Shown here piece by piece: positions 66 through 27,057 of a DNA stretch of 46,629 bases. How positions within the stretch are numbered: position 1 is the stretch's first letter; every line of letters starts with the position of its first letter. The notes under the pieces are model-generated. The model worked only from the letters and a program-made list of their open reading frames with translations, did no database searches and was not told the origin of the DNA. Source of the stretch: Clostridia bacterium (lineage in GTDB: Bacteria > Bacillota > Clostridia > Christensenellales > CAG-1252); contig JAFSZO010000042.1 in assembly GCA_017455605.1 (NCBI GenBank), forward strand, positions 1-46,629, read 5' to 3'. A program made the position numbers and the translations under genes.

Positions 66-434
66 TCAGTCCTTCGCCTTTTCTGCCTTTACGAGAGACT
101 TCGAGATACCCTCGACCAGCGTGGCGTCGTGCTCACTGAGCGTATAATAGGTCTTCTCTCCGCCCTTCTTTACAACGATGATCGTATTGGGATTCACGTC
201 AGTCTTGGGCTTCGGAATGTAGTCGATGTCCGCGAGCAGGCGCTCGAGGCTGTAGTCCGTGGCGTCGCAGATCTTCTTGAGTGTGTCGAGCTGGATCTTG
301 CGCGTAAAGCCGGTATCCTTGCTCTTCAAAAGCTCGTAAATGTATTGACGCGAATACCCGACCTTGCGGGAAAATGCGGAGATCGTAAGTCCGCTTTCTA
401 CCAAAATCTGTTCAATTGCTTCTCCGAGTTTCAT
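66..434 (-). CDS. XRE-family helix-turn-helix transcriptional regulator
   Basis: ORF 66..443 with HTH signature LTISAFSRKVGYSRQYIYELL. ATG at 434 lies 8 nt after the AAGAGGTG SD. GTG 443 and ATG 440 are too close to the SD. Confidence 0.8.
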   Translation of the reverse strand: MKLGEAIEQILVESGLTISAFSRKVGYSRQYIYELLKSKDTGFTRKIQLDTLKKICDATDYSLERLLADIDYIPKPKTDVNPNTIIVVKKGGEKTYYTLSEHDATLVEGISKSLVKAEKAKD

Positions 435-1238: not shown

Positions 1239-1778
1239 ATGGAGAAACACTATACCATCGAGATCGCCGGCTTAAAGCGCGATCTGCCCATCTGTAAGGC
1301 GGGCGACAACCTCTATATCGGCGCGTTCGTGATGTTCTCGGATGTGGAACTCACCGTCAAGGCGGCGACAGCTCTCCTCGAGAGGTGCCCCGACTTCGAC
1401 GTGATCCTGACCGCCGAGTCCAAGGGCATCCCCCTCGCCTACGAGATGGCTCGTCAGAGCGGCAAGCGCTATCTCGTCGCACGCAAAGGCGCGAAGCTGT
1501 ATATGCAGACCCCCGTCAAAGTGTACGTAAAGTCCATCACGACCGCGAAGATGCAGGAGCTCTACCTCGATAAATCCGAGCTGGACAGTCTGAAAGGTCA
1601 GCGCGTGCTGATCGTGGACGACGTGGTCTCCACCGGCGAGTCGCTCTCCGCCCTCGAACAGCTGCTCTCCTACGCCTCGGGCACGGTGGTCGGCAAAGCC
1701 TTCGTCCTCGCAGAGGGCGACGCGGCGAAGCGCGACGACGTGATTTATCTGCAGTACCTGCCCCTCTTCTTTGAATAA
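1239..1778 (+). CDS. Type I phosphoribosyltransferase family protein (adenine/xanthine PRT-like)
   Basis: PRPP-binding loop VLIVDDVVSTGESL. Starts 3 nt after the hpt stop. Substrate cannot be assigned from sequence alone. Confidence 0.75.
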   Translation: MEKHYTIEIAGLKRDLPICKAGDNLYIGAFVMFSDVELTVKAATALLERCPDFDVILTAESKGIPLAYEMARQSGKRYLVARKGAKLYMQTPVKVYVKSITTAKMQELYLDKSELDSLKGQRVLIVDDVVSTGESLSALEQLLSYASGTVVGKAFVLAEGDAAKRDDVIYLQYLPLFFE

Positions 1779-1779
1779 A

Positions 1780-1900
1780 GGCGACGTATTGCGGCGCATA
1801 TTCTTCGCTAACTATTTCATCAAAAGGCAGTTACGTACGATCAGTACGCGCCTGCCTTTTTCTTCAAAGAGCGCTCGCCTCTGCACCACTCTCCGCCGCC
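1780..1900 (+). repeat. R1 intergenic element, copy A
   Basis: GACGTATTGCGGCGCATATTCTTCGCTA...AAAAGGCAG-TTACGTAC-GATCA-GTACGCGC-CTGCCTTTT...GAGCGCTCGCCTCTGCACCACTCTCCGCCGCC. Starts 2 nt after the PRT stop. Aligns with the copies at 3466, 7555, 8084 and 26786. Confidence 0.85.
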
Positions 1901-2094
1901 TTTTGTTTAACTAAATTGTTAATTGAACAGCCATCACGCGGTTTTTGCAAAGCCTTGTATTCACAACCTTTCTTCGCTGCCTTTTGTTATTTCTTATCTC
2001 AACGCGCCTCTATCCCCCACGCTCCGCCACTTTACAAAAACGAAAAATCCTGTGATCTGTGTTAAAAAAGGCACAATCAAAACGAGGGAAAGCT

Positions 2095-2373
2095 CTATTT
2101 CAGGCTTTCTATAAACTCCGCCAAAAGCTCCTTTTGTTGTTCGGACAATTGCAATATCGGTTCGCTTCCCTCTTCGCGAAAGAAATCCGACAACGAGACG
2201 TCGAGCGCTTGGCAAATATACCCGAGATACTCCACCGTCGGGCTCTTCAAGCCCTGTTCAAGCTGATAGATATACGTCGGAGAAACTCCAGCAAGATTCG
2301 CCAGCGCGTTCTTGGTCAAGCGATGTTTTTCTCTGAGTTTTTTTATTCTTTCCGCAACTTGCAAATTGTCCAT
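2095..2373 (-). CDS. XRE-family helix-turn-helix transcriptional regulator
   Basis: HTH LTKNALANLAGVSPTYIYQLEQG. ATG at 2373 (the ORF track uses GTG 2379). Divergent from the membrane-protein gene. Confidence 0.8.
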   Translation of the reverse strand: MDNLQVAERIKKLREKHRLTKNALANLAGVSPTYIYQLEQGLKSPTVEYLGYICQALDVSLSDFFREEGSEPILQLSEQQKELLAEFIESLK

Positions 2374-2390
2374 ATACACCCACCGATTTT

Positions 2391-2440
2391 ACTATAGTTT
2401 TATTTTTAAACACAAATCGGAAAAATGTTACAACTATAGT
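2391..2440. promoter_or_regulatory. Two copies of the 8-bp palindrome ACTATAGT (candidate XRE operators)
   Basis: ACTATAGT at 2391-2398 and 2433-2440 in the divergent intergenic region. The second copy abuts the -35 of the + strand promoter. Confidence 0.45.
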
Positions 2441-2441
2441 A

Positions 2442-2470
2442 TTGACAAACTTAAACGAAAGTATTATACT
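2442..2470 (+). promoter_or_regulatory. SigA-type promoter of the 278-aa membrane protein gene
   Basis: TTGACA (2442-2447), 17 nt, TATACT (2465-2470). Confidence 0.6.
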
Positions 2471-2517
2471 GTTCTTGATATATTCTTCACCCCCGAAGAA
2501 ACACAAAGGAGAAAACT

Positions 2518-3354
2518 ATGGCAAAAAACAAAAACTTTTCAGTCAGTATCAAAGTCGGCGACACGGAAAAAACCCTTAATTTTACAGAAGTGTCCTTGCC
2601 TCACGAAGAATGGAAAGCTTTAAGAGCTTCCGGCGATCCCGAACATCTTTTCCTTTTGGGCTTGGGCACAAAACTCAGAATGCAGACCTTGCATAGACTG
2701 TCGCGTTTCGGCACGCTCATTTTGGCGGGTTTGCTCGGTATCGCCGTATTGCTCGGCTTCTTCGTTGACGTTTCCGCAGCAATCATCGTCGGCGTGGTTT
2801 CATTCCTCTTTTTCTCGTTATCGATCTTTTCTCGTTTCGTTCGTTTGGAAGACACCTATTCCTCGATTTTAAAAGCATTAAAACACACGCCTTACCGCGA
2901 AGAATTGGATAAGTTCCATGAGAACTTTTCTTGGATTGAGCTTCTGCTCCTTATCCCGGATTTCATAATCCGCATGATTCCGCTCGTTATAGACACTTTC
3001 TGCATTTTAATCGAAAACGTCTTTCCCCGCTTGGTTGCTTCGCGCACGAACGCCGTCTTTGCCGTTCCCCAAGGTTGCGGTATGGACGACATCATCGCGC
3101 TAAGCGATTTCTATCACGAAACGCTTGAAGAGAAATTGGAACACGCAGCAGAAGATCTCGAGGCTTACGGTCAAGCGGAGATCCAACAATATATGGACGA
3201 GCATACCTACAAACTCAACGATCCGTACGATACCATCCTGAAGCCTACCGGACGCAACAATTACGATTCGTTGAAAGATCGTTATGAATACATTGATCAA
3301 CACGGATACATTTGGTATTCAAACGACAACAAAAGCTTTTACAAAAAGAAGTAA
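2518..3354 (+). CDS. Hypothetical membrane protein
   Basis: AGGAGA SD before the ATG. Hydrophobic helices FGTLILAGLLGIAVLLGFFV, AAIIVGVVSFLFFSLSIF and LLLLIPDFIIRMIPLVIDTFCILI. Visibly AT-richer than the flanks. No recognisable family. Confidence 0.7.
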   Translation: MAKNKNFSVSIKVGDTEKTLNFTEVSLPHEEWKALRASGDPEHLFLLGLGTKLRMQTLHRLSRFGTLILAGLLGIAVLLGFFVDVSAAIIVGVVSFLFFSLSIFSRFVRLEDTYSSILKALKHTPYREELDKFHENFSWIELLLLIPDFIIRMIPLVIDTFCILIENVFPRLVASRTNAVFAVPQGCGMDDIIALSDFYHETLEEKLEHAAEDLEAYGQAEIQQYMDEHTYKLNDPYDTILKPTGRNNYDSLKDRYEYIDQHGYIWYSNDNKSFYKKK

Positions 3355-3372
3355 ACCTTTATAAACTCCACA

Positions 3373-3413
3373 AGATCCGTTTCTTTCGAAAAGATGGAAA
3401 CGGATCTTTTTTT
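3373..3413 (+). terminator. Rho-independent terminator
   Basis: AGATCCGTTTC (3373-3383) / GAAACGGATCT (3397-3407) followed by a T-run to 3413. Confidence 0.8.
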
Positions 3414-3465
3414 AGACCCAAAAACACGAGCGCGGAGGGTTACTAAGAAACATTATCAACAAAAG

Positions 3466-3586
3466 ACAGCGGAGAGTGGTGCGAAGACAAACGCTCATCA
3501 AAAAGGCGAGCAGGAGCGTACTTGATCGTACGTGACTACTCGCCTTTGCAGATGTAGTGAAGTATTCGTGCCGCTATACGCTGTCG
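3466..3586 (-). repeat. R1 intergenic element, copy B (inverted relative to copy A)
   Basis: ACAGCGGAGAGTGGTGCGAAGACAAACGCTC...AAAGGCGAG...GCGTACTTGATCGTACGTGA..CTCGCCTTT...GTGCCGCTATACGCTGTCG. Ends 1 nt before the glnN stop codon. Confidence 0.85.
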
Positions 3587-3587
3587 T

Positions 3588-5681
<2,094 letters not shown>

Positions 5682-6834: not shown

Positions 6835-7566
6835 ATGAGAAATTGGGAAAAAGAAAAGGAAAAACGCGTCGCCTTTATCCGCGATTTGCTCGCAACTTCG
6901 GGCGCAAAAGGCGTCATTTTCGGCAATAGCGGCGGCAAGGACAGCGCTCTGGTCGCAGCCCTCTGCTCCTTCGCGACGAAGAACGTGCTGGGCGTCATTA
7001 TGCCCTGCCACTCCAAGCGCAACTTCGGCGAGGACAAGGAAGACGGGCTCGCCGTCGCCGCGAAATACGGCGTCGAGACGATGATCGTCGACCTGACGAA
7101 GGTGCGCGCGGACCTCATCGAAGCGGTGGGCACGCCCCTCGAGAGCAAGGGGGCGCTGTCCAACATCGCGCCTCGCCTGCGTATGACCACCCTCTACGCG
7201 ATAGGAGCCGAGCGCGGCTACCTCGTGGCCGGTACGGGCAACAAGAGCGAGCGCTATATGGGCTACTTCACGAAATGGGGGGACGGCGCGTGCGACTTCA
7301 ACCCCATCGCAGACCTCGGCGCGACCGAAGTCTTCGACTTCCTGCGCTATCTCGGCGCGCCCGACCACGTCGTGACCAAGGCACCCTCAGCTGGACTCTT
7401 CGAGGGACAAACGGACGAGACGGAGATGGGCGTGACCTACGCCGAGATCGACGCTTATCTGCGCGGCGAACCCGTGTCGAACGAGGCGAAAGCGATCATC
7501 GAACGCTACCACCGCGCGGCGGGGCACAAGATGGTCCTCCCCCCCGTGTATCACGACGACGTATAA
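6835..7566 (+). CDS. nadE: NH3-dependent NAD+ synthetase
   Basis: PP-loop GNSGGKDSALVAAL, plus GTGNKSERYMGYFTKWGDGACDFNPI. ATG 6835 lies 8 nt after GAGGAT. An alternative ATG is at 6817. Confidence 0.9.
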   Translation: MRNWEKEKEKRVAFIRDLLATSGAKGVIFGNSGGKDSALVAALCSFATKNVLGVIMPCHSKRNFGEDKEDGLAVAAKYGVETMIVDLTKVRADLIEAVGTPLESKGALSNIAPRLRMTTLYAIGAERGYLVAGTGNKSERYMGYFTKWGDGACDFNPIADLGATEVFDFLRYLGAPDHVVTKAPSAGLFEGQTDETEMGVTYAEIDAYLRGEPVSNEAKAIIERYHRAAGHKMVLPPVYHDDV

Positions 7567-7676
7567 CGGCGCAGATGCTTCGCTACCGCGTCGCTCGGAG
7601 GTAGTTACGTACAAGGAGTACGCGCCTGCCACACTCGCTCGCGGAGCGCTCGTCTCTGCACCGTTCTCCGTCGTCG
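7555..7676 (+). repeat. R1 intergenic element, copy C
   Basis: GACGACGTATAACGGCGCAGATGCTTCGCTA...GTTACGTACAAGGAGTACGCGCC...GAGCGCTCGTCTCTGCACCGTTCTCCGTCGTCG. The nadE stop codon (7564-7566) lies inside the element. Confidence 0.8.
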
Positions 7677-7814
7677 TGAGTTTGTTTTATTCGACGAACG
7701 AATAAAATGACCTTAAAAAGATTTTTCCTTTCTCCTTCGAGAGAAGAGAAGGCGGAGAGGAAATAGAGGCGAGTGACTTGAAAAAAGCATTCATAATATA
7801 ATTCTCTTCCATCG

Positions 7815-7890
7815 CACGCCATCAAGCTTGGAGCGGAAAAAAAATAAAAAAATGCGAACGTGGAGAGGAGTGTAGCGGCGAGTAACTCCG
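7815..7890 (+). repeat. ~52-nt direct repeat (copy 1) fused to a truncated R1 head
   Basis: CACGCCATCAAGCTTGGAGCGGAAAAAAAATAAAAAAATGCGAACGTGGAGAG, then GAGTGTAGCGGCGAG, a degenerate form of the R1 GGAGAGTGGTGCAGAGGCGAG head. Repeated at 8039. Confidence 0.75.
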
Positions 7891-8038
7891 TAATATATGT
7901 TCAACAAACGATCCTAATCCAAGAGAGCACGCAGAAGGGGGCAGATGCGAGGCTCGCTATGAGGCTTCGCCTCTACGCGGACCTTCGGTACGGAAGCCGA
8001 CGGAAAGGCGCGAATGGAAACAAACAAATACACCCCCG

Positions 8039-8092
8039 CACGCCATCAAGCTTGGAGCGGAAAAAAATATAAAAATTTGCGAACGTGGAGAG
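8039..8092 (+). repeat. ~52-nt direct repeat (copy 2), running into R1 copy D
   Basis: CACGCCATCAAGCTTGGAGCGGAAAAAAATATAAAAATTTGCGAACGTGGAGAG, near-identical to 7815-7867. Confidence 0.8.
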
Positions 8093-8206
8093 TGGTGCAG
8101 AGACAAGCGCTCTCCGAGGAGGCGGGTCTGAGCGTACTCCGTGTACGTGATGCCCGACGACGCAGGAAGTTAGCGCAGTATATGTGCCGCTATACACGTT
8201 CGCCGG
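8084..8206 (-). repeat. R1 intergenic element, copy D (inverted relative to copy C)
   Basis: CGTGGAGAGTGGTGCAGAGACAAGCGCTC...GCGTACTCCGTGTACGTGA...GTGCCGCTATACACGTTCGCCGG. Ends 6 nt before the trmL ATG and supplies its GGAG SD. Confidence 0.85.
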
Positions 8207-8713: not shown

Positions 8714-8732
8714 GGCGAGGCGAGCCCCTCTC

Positions 8733-8764
8733 AATTAGGAATTAGGAATGAGGAATTAGGAATT
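8733..8764 (+). repeat. Heptamer microsatellite (AATTAGG)n, outer cap of the left inverted repeat
   Basis: AATTAGG AATTAGG AATGAGG AATTAGG AATT. The reverse complement (AATTCCT)n occurs at 14373-14397. Confidence 0.9.
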
Positions 8765-9035
8765 GCGGACGCCGAATGCGTTCCGCAATGTCGAGCGATA
8801 GCGAGATACATCATGCTTGCGTAGCAAGTACATCATGTCGCCGAAGGCGTGCTGCCGATGCCGCACAGGCGGAGGCAATGTCGAGCGTAGCGAGATACAT
8901 CATGTTTGCGGAGCAAATACATCATGTCGCCGCAGGCGATACAAAAAAGTGAAGTTGCTTCGCAGTGAAGTACGGCTGACGCCGTGTGAAGCCTATCGCA
9001 GTGAAGTTTGTACCGGATGGTACAAGTTGAGGGTC
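8765..9035 (+). repeat. Left arm of large inverted repeat (IR-L), a linker-hairpin array
   Basis: Internal tandem units at 8787-8849 and 8877-8938, built as (AATGTCGAGCG.TAGCGAGATACATCATG-hairpin-TACATCATG-hairpin). Then four GTGAAGT words alternate with hairpins. 8892-9035 is near-identical to the reverse complement of 13982-14125. Confidence 0.9.
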
Positions 9036-15882: not shown

Positions 15883-16565
15883 GAAGGATCTTAATCGTAG
15901 AGGACGAGAAAAACATCGCGGAGATCGAGCGGGACTATCTGGAGCTGGACGGCTTTGAGGTCATCATCGAGAACAACGGCGCCACGGGTATGCAGCGCGC
16001 TCTAAAGGAAGAGTTCGACCTCGTGATCCTCGACATTATGCTCCCCGACATGGACGGATTCGAGATCTGTCGCGCGCTCCGCAAGGAGAAGGACGTGCCC
16101 ATCCTGATGGTCACGGCGAAGGTCGCGAGCATCGACAAGGTGCGCGGTCTCGGCATCGGCGCGGACGACTACATCGTCAAGCCCTTCGACCCCGCCGAGC
16201 TCGTGGCGCGCGTCAAGGCGCACATCGCGAGATACGAGAGGATCAAGGGCAATACGCAGGAGAAAGGCGTGGACATCGAATACCGTGATCTCGTGATCAA
16301 GCCCCTGTCCCGCCGCGTCTTCTTCAAGAAGGAAGAGGTCTTCCTGACCGCGAAGGAGTTCGACCTCCTGTACTTCCTCGCCAGCAACCCCAACGTCGTC
16401 TTCCGCAAGGAGACCATCTTTGACAAGGTGTGGGGCGTGGACAGCTTCGGCGACGCGGGCACGGTGGTCGTCCACCTGACGCACATCCGCGACAAGATCC
16501 CGATGGACTACATCGAGACGGTCAGAGGCGTGGGCTACCGCTTCAGTATGCAGCCCGAACAATAA
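15879..16565 (+). CDS. OmpR/PhoB-family response regulator
   Basis: Receiver ILIVEDE...LVILDIMLPDMDGFE...VTAK, plus a winged-helix output domain (LTAKEFDLLYFL, VRGVGYRF). TTG start lies 8 nt after AAAGGAGG. TTGA overlap with the kinase stop. Confidence 0.9.
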   Translation: MRRILIVEDEKNIAEIERDYLELDGFEVIIENNGATGMQRALKEEFDLVILDIMLPDMDGFEICRALRKEKDVPILMVTAKVASIDKVRGLGIGADDYIVKPFDPAELVARVKAHIARYERIKGNTQEKGVDIEYRDLVIKPLSRRVFFKKEEVFLTAKEFDLLYFLASNPNVVFRKETIFDKVWGVDSFGDAGTVVVHLTHIRDKIPMDYIETVRGVGYRFSMQPEQ

Positions 16566-16568
16566 GGT

Positions 16569-17285
16569 ATGTTCGTCGGCGACTACCATACGCACACCAC
16601 CTTCAGCGACGGCAAGGGCAGCGTCCTCGAGAACGCTCTCGCCGCGAAGGAGCGGGGACTCGCCGAGATCGCCGTGACGGACCACGGCTTTCGCATTTTG
16701 ACGATGGGGTTCAAGAAGTATCTCCGCGCCAAAAAGGAATGCGAAGAGGCGGAAAAGCGCACGGGGATCCGCGTGATCGCCGGCATCGAAGCGGACGTCG
16801 TCTCCCCCGAAGGGGACGTGGACATTCGCCCCGACCACGTCGCGCCGATCGATTTCATCATCGTCGGATTCCACAAATTCGCCTTCCCGAAGAACCTTTC
16901 CACCTTCTTCAAAATGTATTTCGTGACCTACTTCAACGGGCTGATCCGCACGAGCAAGAAGGCGCGAGCGCGCAACACCCGCGCGATCATCGCCGCGATC
17001 GAGCGCTACCCCGTCAAGGTCGTCGCCCACCTCAATCATTCGCTCCGCGTGAACGTCGGAGAAGTGGCGGCGGCGTGCGCGAAAAAGGGAGTGCTGATCG
17101 AGCTCAATGCGAAGCATATCAAAGCCCTCAAGGGGCATTGGCACGAACTGGCGGAGAGCGGCGCGAACTTCGTCGTGAATTCGGACGCGCATCGCCCAAA
17201 GGACGTCGGCGACCTGCAAGCCGCCTTTGACTTCGCGGTGAAAAACGGCATCGATCCCGCGCGGATCGTCAACTACAAGGAATAG
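16569..17285 (+). CDS. PHP-family metal-dependent phosphoesterase (histidinol-phosphatase-like)
   Basis: N-terminal DYHTHTTFSDG and VTDHG motifs, with C-terminal NSDAH. Confidence 0.8.
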   Translation: MFVGDYHTHTTFSDGKGSVLENALAAKERGLAEIAVTDHGFRILTMGFKKYLRAKKECEEAEKRTGIRVIAGIEADVVSPEGDVDIRPDHVAPIDFIIVGFHKFAFPKNLSTFFKMYFVTYFNGLIRTSKKARARNTRAIIAAIERYPVKVVAHLNHSLRVNVGEVAAACAKKGVLIELNAKHIKALKGHWHELAESGANFVVNSDAHRPKDVGDLQAAFDFAVKNGIDPARIVNYKE

Positions 17286-17287
17286 CT

Positions 17288-18070
17288 ATGGCAAGGCATT
17301 GTATTCATTACTATTTCTCTCAAAAACTCACGGAGAATGCGTCCTACGCCCTTTCCGCCATCTTCAAACTATACCCCGACGCCTACCTGCTCGGCAGTTT
17401 GGGCGCCGATCTCTTCCCCACCGAACACAAGGCGCGACTCGCCGCCGCGGACCCCATCCAGCTCTTCGGCGTGACCGCCCGCCACATCTTCACGAGCGGC
17501 TCTAAGTGCAAACTGTCCTATATGCTCGGGCTCCTGTCCCATTACGCCCTGGACCGCATCCTGAACCCCTACCTCTCCTACTTCGCCGCAAACGGCGTGG
17601 CGGGGTATTTCGGAGGAAAGGTCGAGACCATCTCCCGCGAGGAGATCGAGATCGGCGTGGACCGCCACGTCGTGCGCGATTACCTCGGCATGGAGAAGGC
17701 GCTCTCCATCGTCGGCGGACTCGGCACCCGCAAACAGGTCTTGGAGGAGATCACCGACCTGTACGGCAGCGTACTCAACGATCTGTCCGACATCTATCTG
17801 AACGGGCACAAGACCTATGCGATGCTCGAACACGTCTGCCCCGACATCCCCCTTGCGGAAGGACTCGGACGGCTGGACTATATGAACCGCGAAAACCGCG
17901 AATGGAAGAACGCGCAGGGAGAAAAAAGGACTCTCTCGGTCGATGAGATCCTGACGAACGAACGGGAGACCGCCTACGCCCTGCTCGAGGAGTATATGGC
18001 GATGGCGAGGAGCGACAAAGCCCCCGACGAGAGCAAATTCGCCGTGAACGGACTCGGCGAAACGATTTGA
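17288..18070 (+). CDS. Hypothetical protein, possibly zinc-dependent phospholipase C-like fold
   Basis: HCIHYYF, LLGSLGADLF and GLLSHYALDRILNPY resemble the His-rich motifs of the Zn-PLC-like family. Not verifiable here. Confidence 0.55.
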   Translation: MARHCIHYYFSQKLTENASYALSAIFKLYPDAYLLGSLGADLFPTEHKARLAAADPIQLFGVTARHIFTSGSKCKLSYMLGLLSHYALDRILNPYLSYFAANGVAGYFGGKVETISREEIEIGVDRHVVRDYLGMEKALSIVGGLGTRKQVLEEITDLYGSVLNDLSDIYLNGHKTYAMLEHVCPDIPLAEGLGRLDYMNRENREWKNAQGEKRTLSVDEILTNERETAYALLEEYMAMARSDKAPDESKFAVNGLGETI

Positions 18071-24496: not shown

Positions 24497-26782
24497 ATGG
24501 ATTTCGAGATTTTCGACGGCGCAATGGGTACGATACTCCAAGCTCGGGGACTCCCCGCGGGCGCCTTCCCCGAGACCTACAACCTGACCCACCCGGACGT
24601 CGTCCTCGCGGTGCATAAAGCCTACGTCGCGGCAGGCGCTGACGTCGTGACCGCGAACACCTTCGGCGCAAACCCCTTCAAGATGAAGGGCATGGACGTA
24701 AAGAAGATCATTGCCGAAGGCGTGCGGATCGCCAAGGCGTCCGGCGCAAAGAAAGTCGCCCTCGATGTCAGTTCACACGGCGCCCTTCTCGAGCCGAACG
24801 GCTCTCTTTCTTTCGACGAAGCATACGATAATTACGCTTTCATTATGCGCGCTGGCGCAGAGGCGGGCGCGGATCTCGTGCTGATCGAGACGATGAGCGA
24901 CCTGCTCGAGGCGAAATGCGCCCTGCTCGCCGCAAAGGAGAACACCGAGCTCCCGGTCTACGTCACGATGACCTACACCGAGGACGGCAGGACCTTCCTC
25001 GGGACCGACCCCGTTACGGCGACCATCACGCTCTGTTCGCTCGGCGCGGACGCGGTGGGCGTGAACTGCTCGCTCGGCGCGCGCGACCTCTTGCCCGTCG
25101 TCAAAAAGATAACGGAATACGCCACCTGCCCCGTGATCGTGCAACCCAACGCGGGGTTGCCGCGCATCGAGGGAAACCGAACGGTCTACGACGACACGCC
25201 CGCGACCTTCGCCGCCGCGATGGGCGAGATGGCGGACCTCGGCGTGACCATCCTCGGCGGGTGTTGCGGCACCGACCCCGAATACATCCGCGCGCTCAAG
25301 GGACTCCTTAGGGACAAAACGCCCGTAAAGCGCAACGTAAAACGGCATACCGCCGCCACCTCGGCGACCAAGACCGTCTTTCTGGACGAGGGCGTAAAGG
25401 TCATCGGTGAGAGGCTGAACCCGACGGGAAAAAAGAAGCTCAAAGCCGCCCTGATCGAAGGGGACGTGGACTACCTGCTACACGAAGCGATCGACCAAGA
25501 ACGCGCAGGCGCGGACATCCTCGACCTCAACGTCGGACTGCCCGAGATCGACGAAGCGGCGACCCTCGTCAAGGTGATGAAAGAGGTCTCCTCGACCGTC
25601 GCCCTGCCCATCCAGCTCGACTCCTCGGATAAACGCGCACTGGAGCGCGCCTGCCGCCTCTACTGCGGCAAACCCATCATCAACTCGGTGAATATGAAGA
25701 AAGAGAGCCTCGACGCGATCGTGCCCATCGCGAAAAAGTACGGCGCGACCCTGATCGGACTCTGCCTCGGCGACACGATGCCCAAGACCCACGAAGAGCG
25801 TTTCGCCTACGCGACCGCCCTCGTGGAGGAACTGACCGCGCGCGACATCCACAAGAGTGACGTCGTGATCGACTGCCTGGTGCTGACCATCGCGACGGAT
25901 GAGACGCAGGCGGAGGAGACCGCCCTCGCCGTGAAACAGGTCACCGAAGAGCTCGGCGTCTGCACGGTGCTCGGCGTCAGCAATATCAGCTTCGGGATGC
26001 CCGACAGGCTGAAGATCAACGCCGCTTTTCTCTCCAAGTGTCTGCAAGCGGGACTCTCCGCCCCTATCCTGAACCCCCTCGTCGCGGAATATGCCGAGGT
26101 GCTCGGGGGCAAACTGCTGACCCTCGACACCTCCTCCTACTTCACCTTCGACGGGAGCGGCGCGGAAGGCATCCGCGGTATGGTCCTCTGCGGCGCGGTG
26201 GGCGGCATCGAAGAGGCGGTGCGCGAGGCGCTGAAGACCAAAAGTCCCCTCGACGTCATCAACGGCGAATTCATCCCCGCGCTCGACGAGATCGGCGCAA
26301 AGTTCGAGAAAGGCGAAGTCTTTCTGCCCCGCCTGATCGCCGCCGCGGAGGTGGTGAAAAAGGGTATGGACGTGATGCGCGCGGGCGCGGACGAGGACGA
26401 CAGCCGTCCCGACGTGATCCTCGCCACGGTCAAGGGCGACATCCACGACATCGGCAAGAACATCGTCAAAATGTTGCTCCGCAGTTACGGCTACAAGGTC
26501 TTGGACCTCGGCAAGGACGTGCCCGAGAGCGAGGTCGTCGCCGCGTGGGAGAGGACGCACGCCCCCCTGATCGGGCTCTCCGCCCTGATGACCACCACCG
26601 TTCCCTCTATGAAGACCACGATCGACGCCCTGCGTGCGGCAGGATCGACGGCGAAGGTCGCGGTCGGCGGCGCGGTACTGACCGAAAACTACGCGCGAAC
26701 CGTCGGCGCGGACTACTACGGCAAGGACGCAAGGGCGACGGTGAAGATCGCCGAGGCGATCATACGCAAAGACAGCGTATAA
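24497..26782 (+). CDS. metH: Cobalamin-dependent methionine synthase lacking the activation domain
   Basis: Hcy-binding domain (GAMGT, GGCCGT), pterin-binding domain (INSVN), and B12 motif GDIHDIGKNIV...LSALMTTT. ATG 24497 follows AAGAGGT. The ORF-track start at 24080 is rejected. Confidence 0.9.
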   Translation: MDFEIFDGAMGTILQARGLPAGAFPETYNLTHPDVVLAVHKAYVAAGADVVTANTFGANPFKMKGMDVKKIIAEGVRIAKASGAKKVALDVSSHGALLEPNGSLSFDEAYDNYAFIMRAGAEAGADLVLIETMSDLLEAKCALLAAKENTELPVYVTMTYTEDGRTFLGTDPVTATITLCSLGADAVGVNCSLGARDLLPVVKKITEYATCPVIVQPNAGLPRIEGNRTVYDDTPATFAAAMGEMADLGVTILGGCCGTDPEYIRALKGLLRDKTPVKRNVKRHTAATSATKTVFLDEGVKVIGERLNPTGKKKLKAALIEGDVDYLLHEAIDQERAGADILDLNVGLPEIDEAATLVKVMKEVSSTVALPIQLDSSDKRALERACRLYCGKPIINSVNMKKESLDAIVPIAKKYGATLIGLCLGDTMPKTHEERFAYATALVEELTARDIHKSDVVIDCLVLTIATDETQAEETALAVKQVTEELGVCTVLGVSNISFGMPDRLKINAAFLSKCLQAGLSAPILNPLVAEYAEVLGGKLLTLDTSSYFTFDGSGAEGIRGMVLCGAVGGIEEAVREALKTKSPLDVINGEFIPALDEIGAKFEKGEVFLPRLIAAAEVVKKGMDVMRAGADEDDSRPDVILATVKGDIHDIGKNIVKMLLRSYGYKVLDLGKDVPESEVVAAWERTHAPLIGLSALMTTTVPSMKTTIDALRAAGSTAKVAVGGAVLTENYARTVGADYYGKDARATVKIAEAIIRKDSV

Positions 26783-26785
26783 AAA

Positions 26786-26905
26786 GACGGCGTATAGCGG
26801 CGCGAATCCTGCTCTACGACTTCAGTGGCGGGTAGTTACGTACAGTAAGTACGCGCCTATCCGCCACTTCGTTGAGCGTTTGTCTTCACACCACTCTCCG
26901 CCGCC
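26786..26905 (+). repeat. R1 intergenic element, copy E (solo)
   Basis: GACGGCGTATAGCGGCGCGAATCC...AGTGGCGG-GTAGTTACGTACAGTAAGTACGCGCCTAT-CCGCCACT...GAGCGTTTGTCTTCACACCACTCTCCGCCGCC. Starts 4 nt after the metH stop. Confidence 0.85.
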
Positions 26906-26937
26906 TTAACCGAGGCTTTAATCAAAGAATTTGTTAT

Positions 26938-26979: not shown

Positions 26980-27057
26980 TTATTTGCTGAGCAGGTCGTG
27001 CAGGACGGTCATATCCCAAACGCCCATTTCCTCCACGGAGAGTAGAGCAGCCTTGAG
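26980..27057 (-). pseudogene. Relic of a gltX 3' end, diverged and with an internal in-frame deletion
   Basis: The - strand reads ..LKAALLSVEEMGVWDMTVLHDLLSK*. Compare the intact gltX tail LEAALPAVEEMGAWDMTVLHDLL[~55 aa]LLSK* (27703-27944). Nucleotide similarity is visible over 26980-26997 and 26998-27057. Confidence 0.75.

What the first reader, a model, noticed from the sequence alone, without database searches (positions are those of the whole stretch)
1780..3586. Inverted pair of ~120-nt R1 elements brackets an AT-richer XRE plus membrane-protein module between convergent core genes
Seen: R1 copy A (1780-1900) and copy B (3466-3586) are in opposite orientation. Their TATAGCGGC-type ends point outward and sit 2 nt and 1 nt from the stop codons of the PRT gene and glnN. 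Their GGAGAGTGGTGCAGAG-type ends point inward. Between them lie a divergent XRE regulator, a 278-aa membrane protein of visibly lower GC, and palindromic ACTATAGT operator candidates. The same outward/inward geometry recurs at 7555-8206. Inference: either R1 is a gene-end (3' UTR) module, so any DNA inserted between convergent genes ends up flanked by it, or R1 copies act as terminal inverted repeats or recombination sites that delimit cassettes of accessory DNA.
Basis: partly seen in the sequence, partly recalled or inferred. Interest (0 to 1): 0.6.

Follow-up and report, generated by a model that had tools for sequence, protein, structure and literature searches.

The report
Gene-end hairpin repeats flank accessory island
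Two copies of a ~125-base hairpin repeat that this rumen/gut Clostridia genus carries directly after the stop codons of many ordinary genes face each other between two convergent genes. The small regulator-plus-membrane-protein island between them is a separate, strain-variable insertion, not a cassette that the repeats carry.

Summary
R1-A (1779-1901, +) and R1-B (3465-3587, -) are inverted copies of one hairpin repeat. Each starts 0 nt after a stop codon (prt, glnN). Between them lie an XRE gene, an orphan 278-aa membrane-protein gene, two ACTATAGT palindromes and DNA of 39-46% GC.

R1 is genus-wide: 68 full and about 55 partial copies in this 1.26-Mb MAG, and it is present in all 14 species of the genus but almost absent outside it. 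In 54 of 68 copies the TATAGCGG "head" faces a gene's 3' end, usually 0-3 nt after the stop codon or containing it. I found the same in 58 loci from other species. The hairpin shows strong covariation.

The cassette idea fails on several counts:
- Two related species have the R1 pair without the module.
- Another lineage has a 68%-identical module at the same locus with no R1 after prt.
- Three species have neither.
- In a relative that shares R1-A the module is replaced from about 130 nt inside R1-A's tail. On the right the shared stretch ends about 31 nt into R1-B.
- Five of seven such pairs enclose no gene.
- A and B are no more alike than random copies.

One result points the other way. 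A patch shared by two species at 98-99% identity starts exactly at the R1-A head, while prt is only about 89% identical.

Verdict: a REP/BIME-like gene-end doublet with an unrelated accessory island in its spacer.

The parts
1239..1778 (+). Core gene prt (phosphoribosyltransferase). Its stop TAA is at 1776-1778.
   Evidence: PF00156 match. Orthologues at 83-91% aa identity in the genus all end ...LFFE*.
1779..1901 (+). R1 copy A, reading head to tail on the + strand. Outer stem AGGCGACG / CGCCGCCT. The AA of the stop codon pairs with TT after the tail.
   Evidence: It is 99% identical in MAG RGIG8250, although prt there is only about 89% identical.
1950..1989 (+). Degenerate tail fragment of R1, in the same orientation and downstream of copy A.
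   Evidence: the repeat finder family D2. Genome-wide there are 36 same-orientation tail motifs in tail flanks against 3 in head flanks.
2030..3424 (.). Accessory island: XRE gene, divergent promoter/operator region, orphan membrane-protein gene and terminator. GC is 39-46%. It is replaced by about 390 nt of unrelated DNA in RGIG8250.
   Evidence: It is 98.3% identical in a strain of another species (L026).
2095..2373 (-). XRE-family HTH regulator (92 aa from the ATG at 2373; the longest ORF would start at GTG 2379).
   Evidence: HTH_3 E=3e-13. The gene is called as 92 aa on the same-strain contig L025.
2391..2440 (.). Two ACTATAGT palindromes (2391-2398 and 2433-2440) in the divergent intergenic region. 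They are candidate XRE operators.
   Evidence: These are the only two matches in the window, where 0.12 is expected. Function is inferred, not tested.
2442..2470 (+). Near-consensus sigma-70-type promoter (TTGACA, 17 nt, TATACT) for the membrane-protein gene.
   Evidence: 11 of 12 positions match. This is a consensus match only.
2518..3354 (+). Orphan 278-aa membrane protein with low codon-usage score.
   Evidence: No Pfam, PHROG or PADLOC match. Only one other 90%-identity protein cluster (68% identity) among 5.8 billion clusters. Absent from the 27 other species genomes searched in the family.
3374..3413 (+). Intrinsic-terminator-like hairpin with a T-run after the membrane-protein gene.
   Evidence: Read directly from the sequence: GATCCGTTTC...GAAACGGATC followed by TTTTTTT.
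3427..3445 (-). Truncated R1 tail-end fragment (CGAGCGCG-GAGGGT...), in the same orientation as copy B.
   Evidence: The strain L026 has several more such fragments here.
3465..3587 (-). R1 copy B, reading head to tail on the - strand. Its outer stem abuts the glnN stop codon with 0 nt between.
   Evidence: A degenerate orthologue sits next to glnN in L022.
3588..5681 (-). Core gene glnN (type III glutamine synthetase). Its stop is at 3588-3590.
   Evidence: PF12437, PF18318 and PF00120 matches. Orthologues found.
7552..7678 (+). R1 copy C. Its outer stem plus TATAA encodes the last four codons and the stop of nadE.
   Evidence: In G002 and G007 nadE and trmL are only 7-9 nt apart and have no R1.
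8079..8203 (-). R1 copy D. Its head lies 9 nt upstream of the trmL ATG.
26783..26907 (+). Solo R1 copy E, directly after the stop codon of metH.
   Evidence: Metatranscriptome contigs span 26617-26889 and 26722-26903, and none lie downstream.

Best explanation
R1 is a genus-specific, ~125-nt structured palindromic repeat that belongs to gene ends. This is REP/BIME- or ERIC-like behaviour.

Shown:
- Its TATAGCGG head starts at, or includes, the stop codon of about 5% of genes. These are mostly ordinary, well-adapted core genes.
- The orientation relative to the gene is fixed.
- Positions are largely conserved between species.
- Base pairing is maintained by compensatory changes, even at orthologous sites.

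Inferred, with partial support from RNA contigs:
- R1 is transcribed as the 3' end of the upstream mRNA.
- There the long hairpin marks, and probably protects, the RNA 3' end.

Where two genes converge, or where a doublet fills the gap between two co-directional genes, two R1 copies lie tail to tail, as in a BIME-like doublet. R1-A and R1-B are such a doublet between prt and glnN.

The XRE + membrane-protein island is a separate accessory segment that sits in the doublet's spacer. It is old at this locus in one other lineage and absent from most species. It was recently exchanged between two species. It has its own promoter, candidate operator and terminator. R1 neither carries it nor delimits it.
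For: Copy number and distribution:
- 123 nhmmer hits, 68 of them near full length, in 1.26 Mb.
- A covariance model finds R1 in 14 of 14 genomes of the genus and almost nowhere else in the order.

Position relative to genes:
- The head faces a 3' end in 54 of 68 copies. The spacing from stop codon to TATAG peaks at 8-12 nt, which is the length of the outer stem, or the stop lies inside TATAG.
- This was replicated on 58 loci from other species: 54 of 60 heads face 3' ends, 29 lie 0-3 nt after the stop and 16 overlap it.

Structure: strong covariation.

Conservation between species:
- 19 of 27 orthologous gene ends share R1.
- Orthologous outer stems change compensatorily, including the third base of the stop codon.

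RNA: contigs from two metatranscriptomes run from metH through R1-E and end at its tail. None lie downstream.

Associated genes: R1 genes have higher codon-usage scores (P=5e-4). They include an aminoacyl-tRNA synthetase, MetH, GSIII, NadE and transporters.

Independence of the module:
- R1 pair without the module in G013 and G004. Neither in G009, G002 and G007.
- Module without R1-A in L022-L024.
- The left module boundary is about 130 nt inside R1-A's tail.
- Five of seven tail-to-tail pairs enclose no gene.
- A and B are 71.5% identical, the 71st percentile of random pairs.
- The membrane protein is absent from the 27 other species genomes searched in the family.

Empty versus filled site: at nadE-trmL a whole doublet fills a gap that is 7-9 nt in G002 and G007.
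Against: - The strand antisense to the upstream gene folds 13.8 kcal/mol better in 67 of 68 copies and has twice as many G-U pairs. A purely sense-RNA function does not predict this.
- Only 11 of 68 copies have a T-run after the stem, so R1 is not a canonical intrinsic terminator.
- A 3'-stabiliser role does not explain why spacing to the stop codon is 0-3 nt rather than any short distance.
- The RNA evidence is one locus, from unstranded assembled contigs of a related strain. DNA carry-over cannot be excluded.
- The patch that G000 shares with RGIG8250 starts exactly at the R1-A head: 2 differences in 255 nt, against about 11% divergence in the adjacent prt codons. In strain L026 the shared stretch continues through the module (1803-3437 at 98.3%). 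This suggests R1 ends can be recombination boundaries.
- Tail-to-tail pairs are somewhat more frequent than chance (3 observed against 0.52 expected, P=0.012).
Confidence: 0.6

Rival explanations
1. R1 is mainly a selfish, non-autonomous mobile element (MITE- or REPIN-like). An unidentified enzyme would insert it next to stop codons in a fixed orientation. Any effect on the host mRNA would be incidental. The doublet and the island are then simply what accumulates in a permissive intergenic spot.
For: - High copy number restricted to one genus.
- Presence/absence differs between species at the same gene ends.
- Two copies are 97% identical, including outer stem and TAA, but are joined to different genes in different reading frames (C7_6452 and C17_5565).
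- The element carries stop codons in two frames at its head.
- Some copies decay in place.
- Stops next to R1 are biased towards TAA/TAG (24 of 33, against 50% genome-wide).
Against: - No Y1 transposase (PF01797) in this MAG. It occurs in only 4 of 14 genomes of the genus and is not next to R1.
- No reverse transcriptase, except in one genome that has a single R1.
- No target-site duplication: the flanks are inverted complements, not direct repeats.
- Median nearest-neighbour identity is only 84%, so there has been no recent burst.
- 70% of sites are shared between species.
- Orthologous outer stems evolve compensatorily, which points to selection on the hairpin.
Confidence: 0.2
2. The functional form is the other strand. 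It could be an RNA read tail to head (a 5' leader or an antisense RNA). It could instead be a folded single DNA strand recognised by a recombinase or by a replication or repair protein, as with the bottom strand of integron attC sites.
For: - The tail-to-head strand is more stable in 67 of 68 copies, and the wobble pairs are conserved features of the consensus.
- 14 of 68 copies have the head facing a 5' end, five of them 9-14 nt from the start codon, where the tail-to-head RNA would be the leader.
- One MFS transporter gene has an R1 at both ends with both heads pointing at it.
- The interior of R1 is swapped between subfamilies at orthologous sites while outer stems persist.
Against: - Most copies would then be antisense to the end of a gene, with no promoter shown.
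- RNA contigs are continuous with the upstream ORF.
- There are no arrays of same-orientation sites and no consistent R''/R' consensus (RYYYAAC/GTTRRRY); about a third of copies have AAC...GTT, but at the outer rather than the inner end of the stem.
- No candidate recombinase was identified.
Confidence: 0.1
3. R1-A and R1-B act together as terminal inverted repeats or recombination sites of a composite element that moves the XRE/membrane island as a cassette.
For: - Inverted geometry, with low-GC cargo that has foreign-looking codon usage.
- The cargo plus R1-A is 98-99% identical in another species whose flanking prt is about 88% identical. The identity switch falls at the stop codon/R1 head, with an AA indel at the junction.
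Against: - The island is found only at this one locus in every source that has it.
- It occurs without R1-A in L022-L024.
- The pair occurs without it.
- RGIG8250 has the identical R1-A plus 130 nt but a different spacer instead of the island, so the left boundary of the replacement is inside the spacer.
- On the right, shared identity ends about 31 nt into R1-B, not at its outer end.
- A and B are no more similar than random copies.
- No target-site duplication and no transposase.
Confidence: 0.07

Closest known systems
REP / BIME elements of enterobacteria and pseudomonads (PMC2817692)
   Same: - High-copy extragenic imperfect palindromes.
- Mostly at 3' ends of genes and co-transcribed.
- Clustered in alternating orientation, as in BIMEs.
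- From my own knowledge: REPs protect upstream mRNA from 3' exonucleases, and REPs within about 15 nt of a stop codon lower translation (Liang, Rudd and Deutscher 2015). That paper was not retrieved here.
   Different: - R1 is about 125 nt, not 20-40 nt.
- It is one long hairpin with a conserved apical ACGTAC...GTACG stem.
- It begins at the stop codon itself.
- It occurs in Clostridia (Christensenellales-type rumen and gut MAGs).
- No associated RAYT.
REPINs mobilised by RAYT transposases (PMC3116915, PMC8266576)
   Same: - Hairpin of about 100 nt made of two inverted halves.
- Tens to hundreds of copies.
- Vertically persistent within a lineage.
- Compensatory maintenance of the hairpin.
   Different: - The Y1 transposase domain is absent from this MAG and from 10 of 14 genomes of the genus. 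Where present it is not flanked by R1.
- No conserved GTAG-type 5' motif.
- R1 has a strict orientation and junction relative to stop codons.
ERIC/IRU and Neisseria Correia elements (own knowledge)
   Same: - Imperfect palindromes of about 100-150 bp in transcribed intergenic regions.
- They form long RNA hairpins that alter mRNA processing and stability.
- The Correia terminal repeat begins TATAG(T/C)GG, like the R1 head.
   Different: - Unrelated taxa.
- Correia elements duplicate a TA target and occur in either orientation.
- R1 shows no direct-repeat duplication and has a fixed orientation.
Integron attC sites (own knowledge)
   Same: - Structured site of 60-140 nt directly after the stop codon of the preceding ORF.
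- Structure is conserved more than sequence.
- Strand asymmetry, with the strand antisense to the ORF folding best.
   Different: - No same-orientation cassette arrays.
- No R''/R' consensus.
- R1 is dispersed behind core genes.
- An integrase was not looked for.

Membership tests
REPIN/RAYT system | A single-copy RAYT (Y1 HUH transposase, PF01797) in the genome, typically flanked by the repeats. | tested here: not met
   PF01797 is absent from G000 (which is 75% complete) and present in only 4 of 14 genomes of the genus. There are no R1 hits in the five regions around those genes.
REPIN/RAYT system | A hairpin made of two inverted halves, in many copies, with pairing maintained. | tested here: met
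   68 full copies. 91.9% of cells pair, and 26 of 32 pairs show changes on both sides.
REP/BIME | Extragenic, mostly at gene 3' ends, transcribed with the upstream gene. | tested here: met
   54 of 68 heads face 3' ends and 54 of 60 in other species. RNA contigs span gene plus R1-E (one locus only).
REP/BIME | Clusters of copies in alternating orientation. | tested here: met
   Seven tail-to-tail pairs lie within 4 kb, five of them with gene-free spacers of 300-540 nt. For pairs with both heads on 3' ends, 3 were observed against 0.52 expected.
REP/BIME | Short unit of 20-40 nt. | tested here: not met
   The R1 unit is about 125 nt.
MITE (TIR transposon derivative) | Direct target-site duplication flanking the terminal inverted repeats. 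| tested here: not met
   The flanks are reverse complements of each other (the outer stem), not direct repeats. Filled and empty sites show no duplication.
MITE (TIR transposon derivative) | A full-length parent IS with the same ends. | not tested
   No systematic search was made for R1 ends flanking a transposase gene.
Composite transposon / cassette bounded by R1 | The same cargo found between the repeats at more than one locus, with cargo boundaries at the repeat ends. | tested here: not met
   The cargo is found only between prt and glnN. The left boundary is about 130 nt inside R1-A's tail and the right boundary about 31 nt inside R1-B. The cargo occurs without R1-A.
Integron attC | R''/R' core sites (RYYYAAC...GTTRRRY) and arrays of same-orientation sites next to an intI gene. 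| tested here: not met
   The consensus outer stem is CGAnnnCG/CGnnnTCG. Copies are dispersed and co-oriented with each neighbouring gene. intI was not searched for.
Rho-independent terminator | GC-rich stem followed directly by a U-tract. | tested here: not met
   Only 11 of 68 copies have at least 5 T in the 8 nt after the stem.
Any Rfam family | A covariance-model match. | tested here: not met
   No R1 match at gathering threshold in the window, and none at E<=10 in 1700-3700.

The most novel reading that the evidence does not exclude
The R1 head may be a precise, strand-specific junction at which whole R1-bounded intergenic units are swapped between copies and between species. The units could be the ~105-nt interior, a doublet, or a doublet with cargo such as the XRE/membrane island. 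An unidentified enzyme would act on the folded antisense strand. This would be a gene-end-anchored exchange system functionally reminiscent of attC recombination, but dispersed behind core genes.
Probability: 0.08. Interest if true: 0.8.

Novelty: new variant of a known kind. Interest (0 to 1): 0.4.

Why it matters
For this finding the practical result is negative. The inverted R1 pair is not a transposon-like frame around the XRE/membrane genes, so annotators should not call the island a mobile cassette on geometry alone.

The repeat itself is of moderate interest:
- It is an undescribed REP/BIME-like family in small-genome rumen and gut Christensenellales.
- It is joined to stop codons more tightly than known families.
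- Its stems co-vary with the stop codon.
- It can replace the last codons of a gene, as in nadE.
- Its interior turns over between subfamilies while the site persists.

If the stop-codon junction reflects a mechanism rather than selection, it would point to a new way of targeting DNA to gene ends.

Tried and rejected
- Rfam: no family matches R1.
- RAYT/IS200 mobilisation: rejected, because PF01797 is absent here, sporadic in the genus and not next to R1.
- Retro-mobility, suggested by the same-orientation tail fragments downstream of full copies: rejected, because no RVT_1 domain occurs in 13 of 14 genomes.
- Outer stem as a pre-existing terminator into whose loop R1 inserted: rejected. Empty sites have terminators about 18-26 nt from the stop and no such palindrome, and nadE-trmL has no hairpin at all.
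- Antisense terminator using A-rich C-terminal codons: rejected, A content 0.318 against 0.335.
- TA-target (IS630-type) insertion: rejected, because TGA stops also carry R1 and no TA duplication is seen.
- Doublet formed by local inverted duplication: rejected, because partner copies are no more alike than random pairs.
- First collection pattern scan: it found nothing because my gap length was wrong. It was corrected.
- RNA contigs over A/B and C/D were uninformative.
- One supposed empty site (G000 contig C20) turned out to hold a degenerate R1 relic.
- The look-up of encoding contigs with the exact membrane protein found nothing; cluster members did.
Full report
**1. Observation**

The window is contig C3 of a 1.26-Mb, 125-contig MAG with 57.8% GC.

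Copy A reads TAA(1776-1778)-AGGCGACG-TATTGCGGCGC...CACCACTCTCC-GCCGCCT, ending at about 1901. Copy B is its inverted counterpart at 3465-3587, and its outer stem touches the glnN stop at 3588-3590. Copies A-D align at 75% mean column identity. They fold into one long hairpin with compensatory changes.

- prt carries PF00156 and the XRE gene carries HTH_3.
- glnN is a type III glutamine synthetase, nadE an NAD synthase and trmL a SpoU methylase.
- The 278-aa protein matches nothing in Pfam, PHROGs or PADLOC.

GC falls to 39-46% between the repeats, against 56-64% in the flanking genes. ACTATAGT occurs exactly twice in the window, both times in the divergent promoter region, where 0.12 is expected. 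A promoter matching 11 of 12 consensus positions precedes the membrane-protein gene.

**2. What R1 is**

*Copy number and distribution.*
- nhmmer finds 123 hits in the MAG, 68 of them near full length.
It finds almost nothing in 17 genomes of other genera of the family and order.
- A pattern scan of GTDB species genomes recovers 58 loci. All come from MAGs labelled Christensenella sp. UBA..., Clostridia bacterium RGIG... (goat, buffalo or yak rumen) or uncultured Clostridia.

*Consensus.* The element reads (stop)-CGAnnnCG-TATAGCGGCGCA...ACGTAC-loop-GTACGC...GAGCGCTCGTCTCTGCACCaCTCTCC-CGnnnTCG.

*Structure.* On 45 copies, 91.9% of cells pair (73% in shuffles). 309 cells are changed on both sides, against 102 in shuffles, and no shuffle of 500 reaches this. 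Slid controls pair at 25-48%.

**3. Relation to genes**

*In this MAG.*
- The head faces a gene's 3' end in 54 of 68 full copies.
- The distance from stop codon to TATAG peaks at 8-12 nt, which is the length of the outer stem. In 11 copies the stop is the TAG or TAA inside TATAG.
- The last two bases of the stop codon are paired with the tail flank in 16-18 of 28 such copies. The first base pairs at chance level.
- The tail side is typically 100-850 nt from the next gene. It carries same-orientation tail fragments of R1: 36 in tail flanks against 3 in head flanks.

*In other species.* In the 58 loci, 54 of 60 heads face 3' ends, 29 lie 0-3 nt after the stop and 16 overlap it.

*Which genes.* R1-bearing genes have higher codon scores than average (P=5e-4) and are ordinary core genes. 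Their stop codons are biased towards TAA/TAG.

*RNA.* Metatranscriptome contigs from two bovine samples run from metH through R1-E, spanning 26617-26889 and 26722-26903. No contig covers the unique DNA downstream. This supports co-transcription and a 3' boundary at the tail. The contigs are unstranded, come from a related strain and cover only one locus.

**4. The pair and the island in relatives**

The convergent prt/glnN arrangement is conserved across the genus. The states found are:

| Source | R1 after prt | R1 after glnN | Island |
|---|---|---|---|
| G009, G002, G007 | no | no | no; 70-165 nt spacer with ordinary terminators |
| G013, G004 | yes, directly after stop | yes, directly after stop | no; 143 and 44 nt between tails |
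| L022-L024 (ENA contigs) | no; a terminator | degenerate B-like R1 | yes, diverged (membrane protein 68%, XRE 79% aa; prt 90%) |
| RGIG8250 (L061) | yes, 99% identical to A | B-like, 86% | no; about 390 nt of other DNA |
| Strain L026 (run X3) | yes, as in RGIG8250 | fragments plus a different R1 | yes, 98.3% identical |

*RGIG8250.* prt is about 89% identical. From the stop codon onwards, R1-A plus 130 nt has only 2 differences in 255 nt, with an AA indel at the junction. Similarity then stops at about window position 2030.

*Strain L026.* It appears to belong to the RGIG8250 lineage, because it shares the AA indel at the junction. In it, identity ends about 31 nt into R1-B. After that come other R1 fragments and a different R1.

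*Scarcity of the island.*
- The membrane protein has only one other 90%-identity cluster in 5.8 billion clusters.
- It is absent from the 27 other species genomes searched in the family.
- Every occurrence found lies between prt and glnN.

*Conclusions.* The island and the repeats are independent. The island's boundaries lie inside the spacer on the left and inside R1-B on the right, not at the R1 outer ends. It is nevertheless an accessory segment that has moved recently between species.

**5. Other pairs**

Seven tail-to-tail pairs lie within 4 kb of each other in this MAG. Five enclose only gene-free DNA of 300-540 nt. Partner copies are no more similar to each other than random copies (18th-80th percentile).

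The second pair in the window gives a clean comparison of empty and filled sites:
- In G002 and G007, nadE and trmL are 7-9 nt apart (TAA-T-ATG), with the trmL Shine-Dalgarno sequence inside nadE.
- In G000, G009, G010 and G001, a unit of R1, 250-400 nt of spacer and an inverted R1 fills the gap. In G001 the second R1 is only a partial copy.
- The outer stem plus TATAA/TATAG now encodes the last four codons and the stop of nadE (HDDV*, RDDV*, SDDV*).
- In G000 the string TAATATG, which spans the nadE stop and trmL start at the empty G002 site, still sits at the right-hand junction.

Doublets are therefore a normal form of this repeat, like BIMEs.

**6. Dynamics**

- Of 27 gene ends that carry R1 in another species and have an orthologue here, 19 also carry R1 here.
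- The orthologous copy is the best match in only 1 of 12 cases. Examples are 75% against 88% elsewhere, and 69% against 89% elsewhere, with flanking protein ends 98-99% identical.
- In about half of the pairs the outer stems remain recognisably orthologous. They differ by compensatory changes, including TAA...TTA against TAG...CT.
- I infer that the interior is replaced, probably by gene conversion anchored on the conserved blocks, while selection keeps the stem.
- Median nearest-neighbour identity within the genome is 84%. A few pairs exceed 95%, including two copies joined to different genes in different reading frames.
- At least one apparent empty site holds a decayed relic.

**7. What stays unexplained**

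- The strand antisense to the upstream gene folds 13.8 kcal/mol better in 67 of 68 copies.
- The spacing to the stop codon is 0-3 nt.
- The boundary between the 89%-identical prt gene and the 99%-identical R1-A falls exactly at the head.

A plain 3'-stabiliser model predicts none of these three. No mobilising enzyme was found: Y1 transposases are sporadic and unlinked to R1, and reverse transcriptase is absent.

**8. Comparison with known systems, and verdict**

R1 behaves like REP/BIME, REPIN, ERIC and Correia elements. It fails the defining tests for REPIN/RAYT, TIR-type MITEs, attC sites and intrinsic terminators, and it matches no Rfam family.

An earlier follow-up in this scan, on copy E, reached the same family-level reading. 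I re-derived that reading independently and added the locus history.

The finding is a real structure with an ordinary explanation for its geometry. The repeat family is an undescribed variant of a known kind. The cassette reading has low probability.

Noticed in passing
window 7552-7566; loci L094-L098: In four species the last four codons and the stop of nadE are encoded by the R1 outer stem plus TATAA/TATAG (HDDV*, RDDV*, SDDV*, KDEK*). Species without R1 end in EDKK* or EEED*, with trmL 7-9 nt downstream.
   Followed up: yes
G000 contigs C111:12023, C104:3558, C107:11118 against loci L058 and L078: At orthologous gene ends of closely related species, the R1 interior belongs to a different subfamily. 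The outer stem persists with compensatory changes, including the third base of the stop codon.
   Followed up: partly
window 1950-1989, 3427-3445, 7837-7882, 27037-27050; genome-wide: Full R1 copies are followed on the tail side by short same-orientation tail-end fragments, each an outer stem plus about 30 nt. These often form small arrays separated by A-rich DNA. Their origin is unknown.
   Followed up: partly
G000 contig C112:16069-18660: An MFS transporter gene (16211-18028) has an R1 at both ends with both heads pointing at it: 13 nt before the start and 4 nt after the stop. A third copy lies 10 nt before the next gene.
   Followed up: no
G008 contig C146:178-534 (locus L092): In one species of the genus, an IS200-like Y1 transposase gene and another gene lie downstream of glnN, where G000 has R1-B and the island. 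There is no R1 there.
   Followed up: partly
window 8731-8765: The (AATTAGG)n heptamer run attracts many RNA and DNA contigs from several runs (depth up to 700 in X25), with unrelated flanks. It is therefore shared by many loci or organisms.
   Followed up: no
window 66-434: A second XRE-type HTH gene lies upstream of hpt. Unlike the island's XRE, it is conserved at this position in relatives at 75-84% aa identity.
   Followed up: no
G000 contigs C113:6099, C113:6561, C67:6677, C78:3062, C36:11811: R1 copies that are not next to a stop codon often start directly after a T-run. The run follows what looks like a terminator or another R1 fragment.
   Followed up: no
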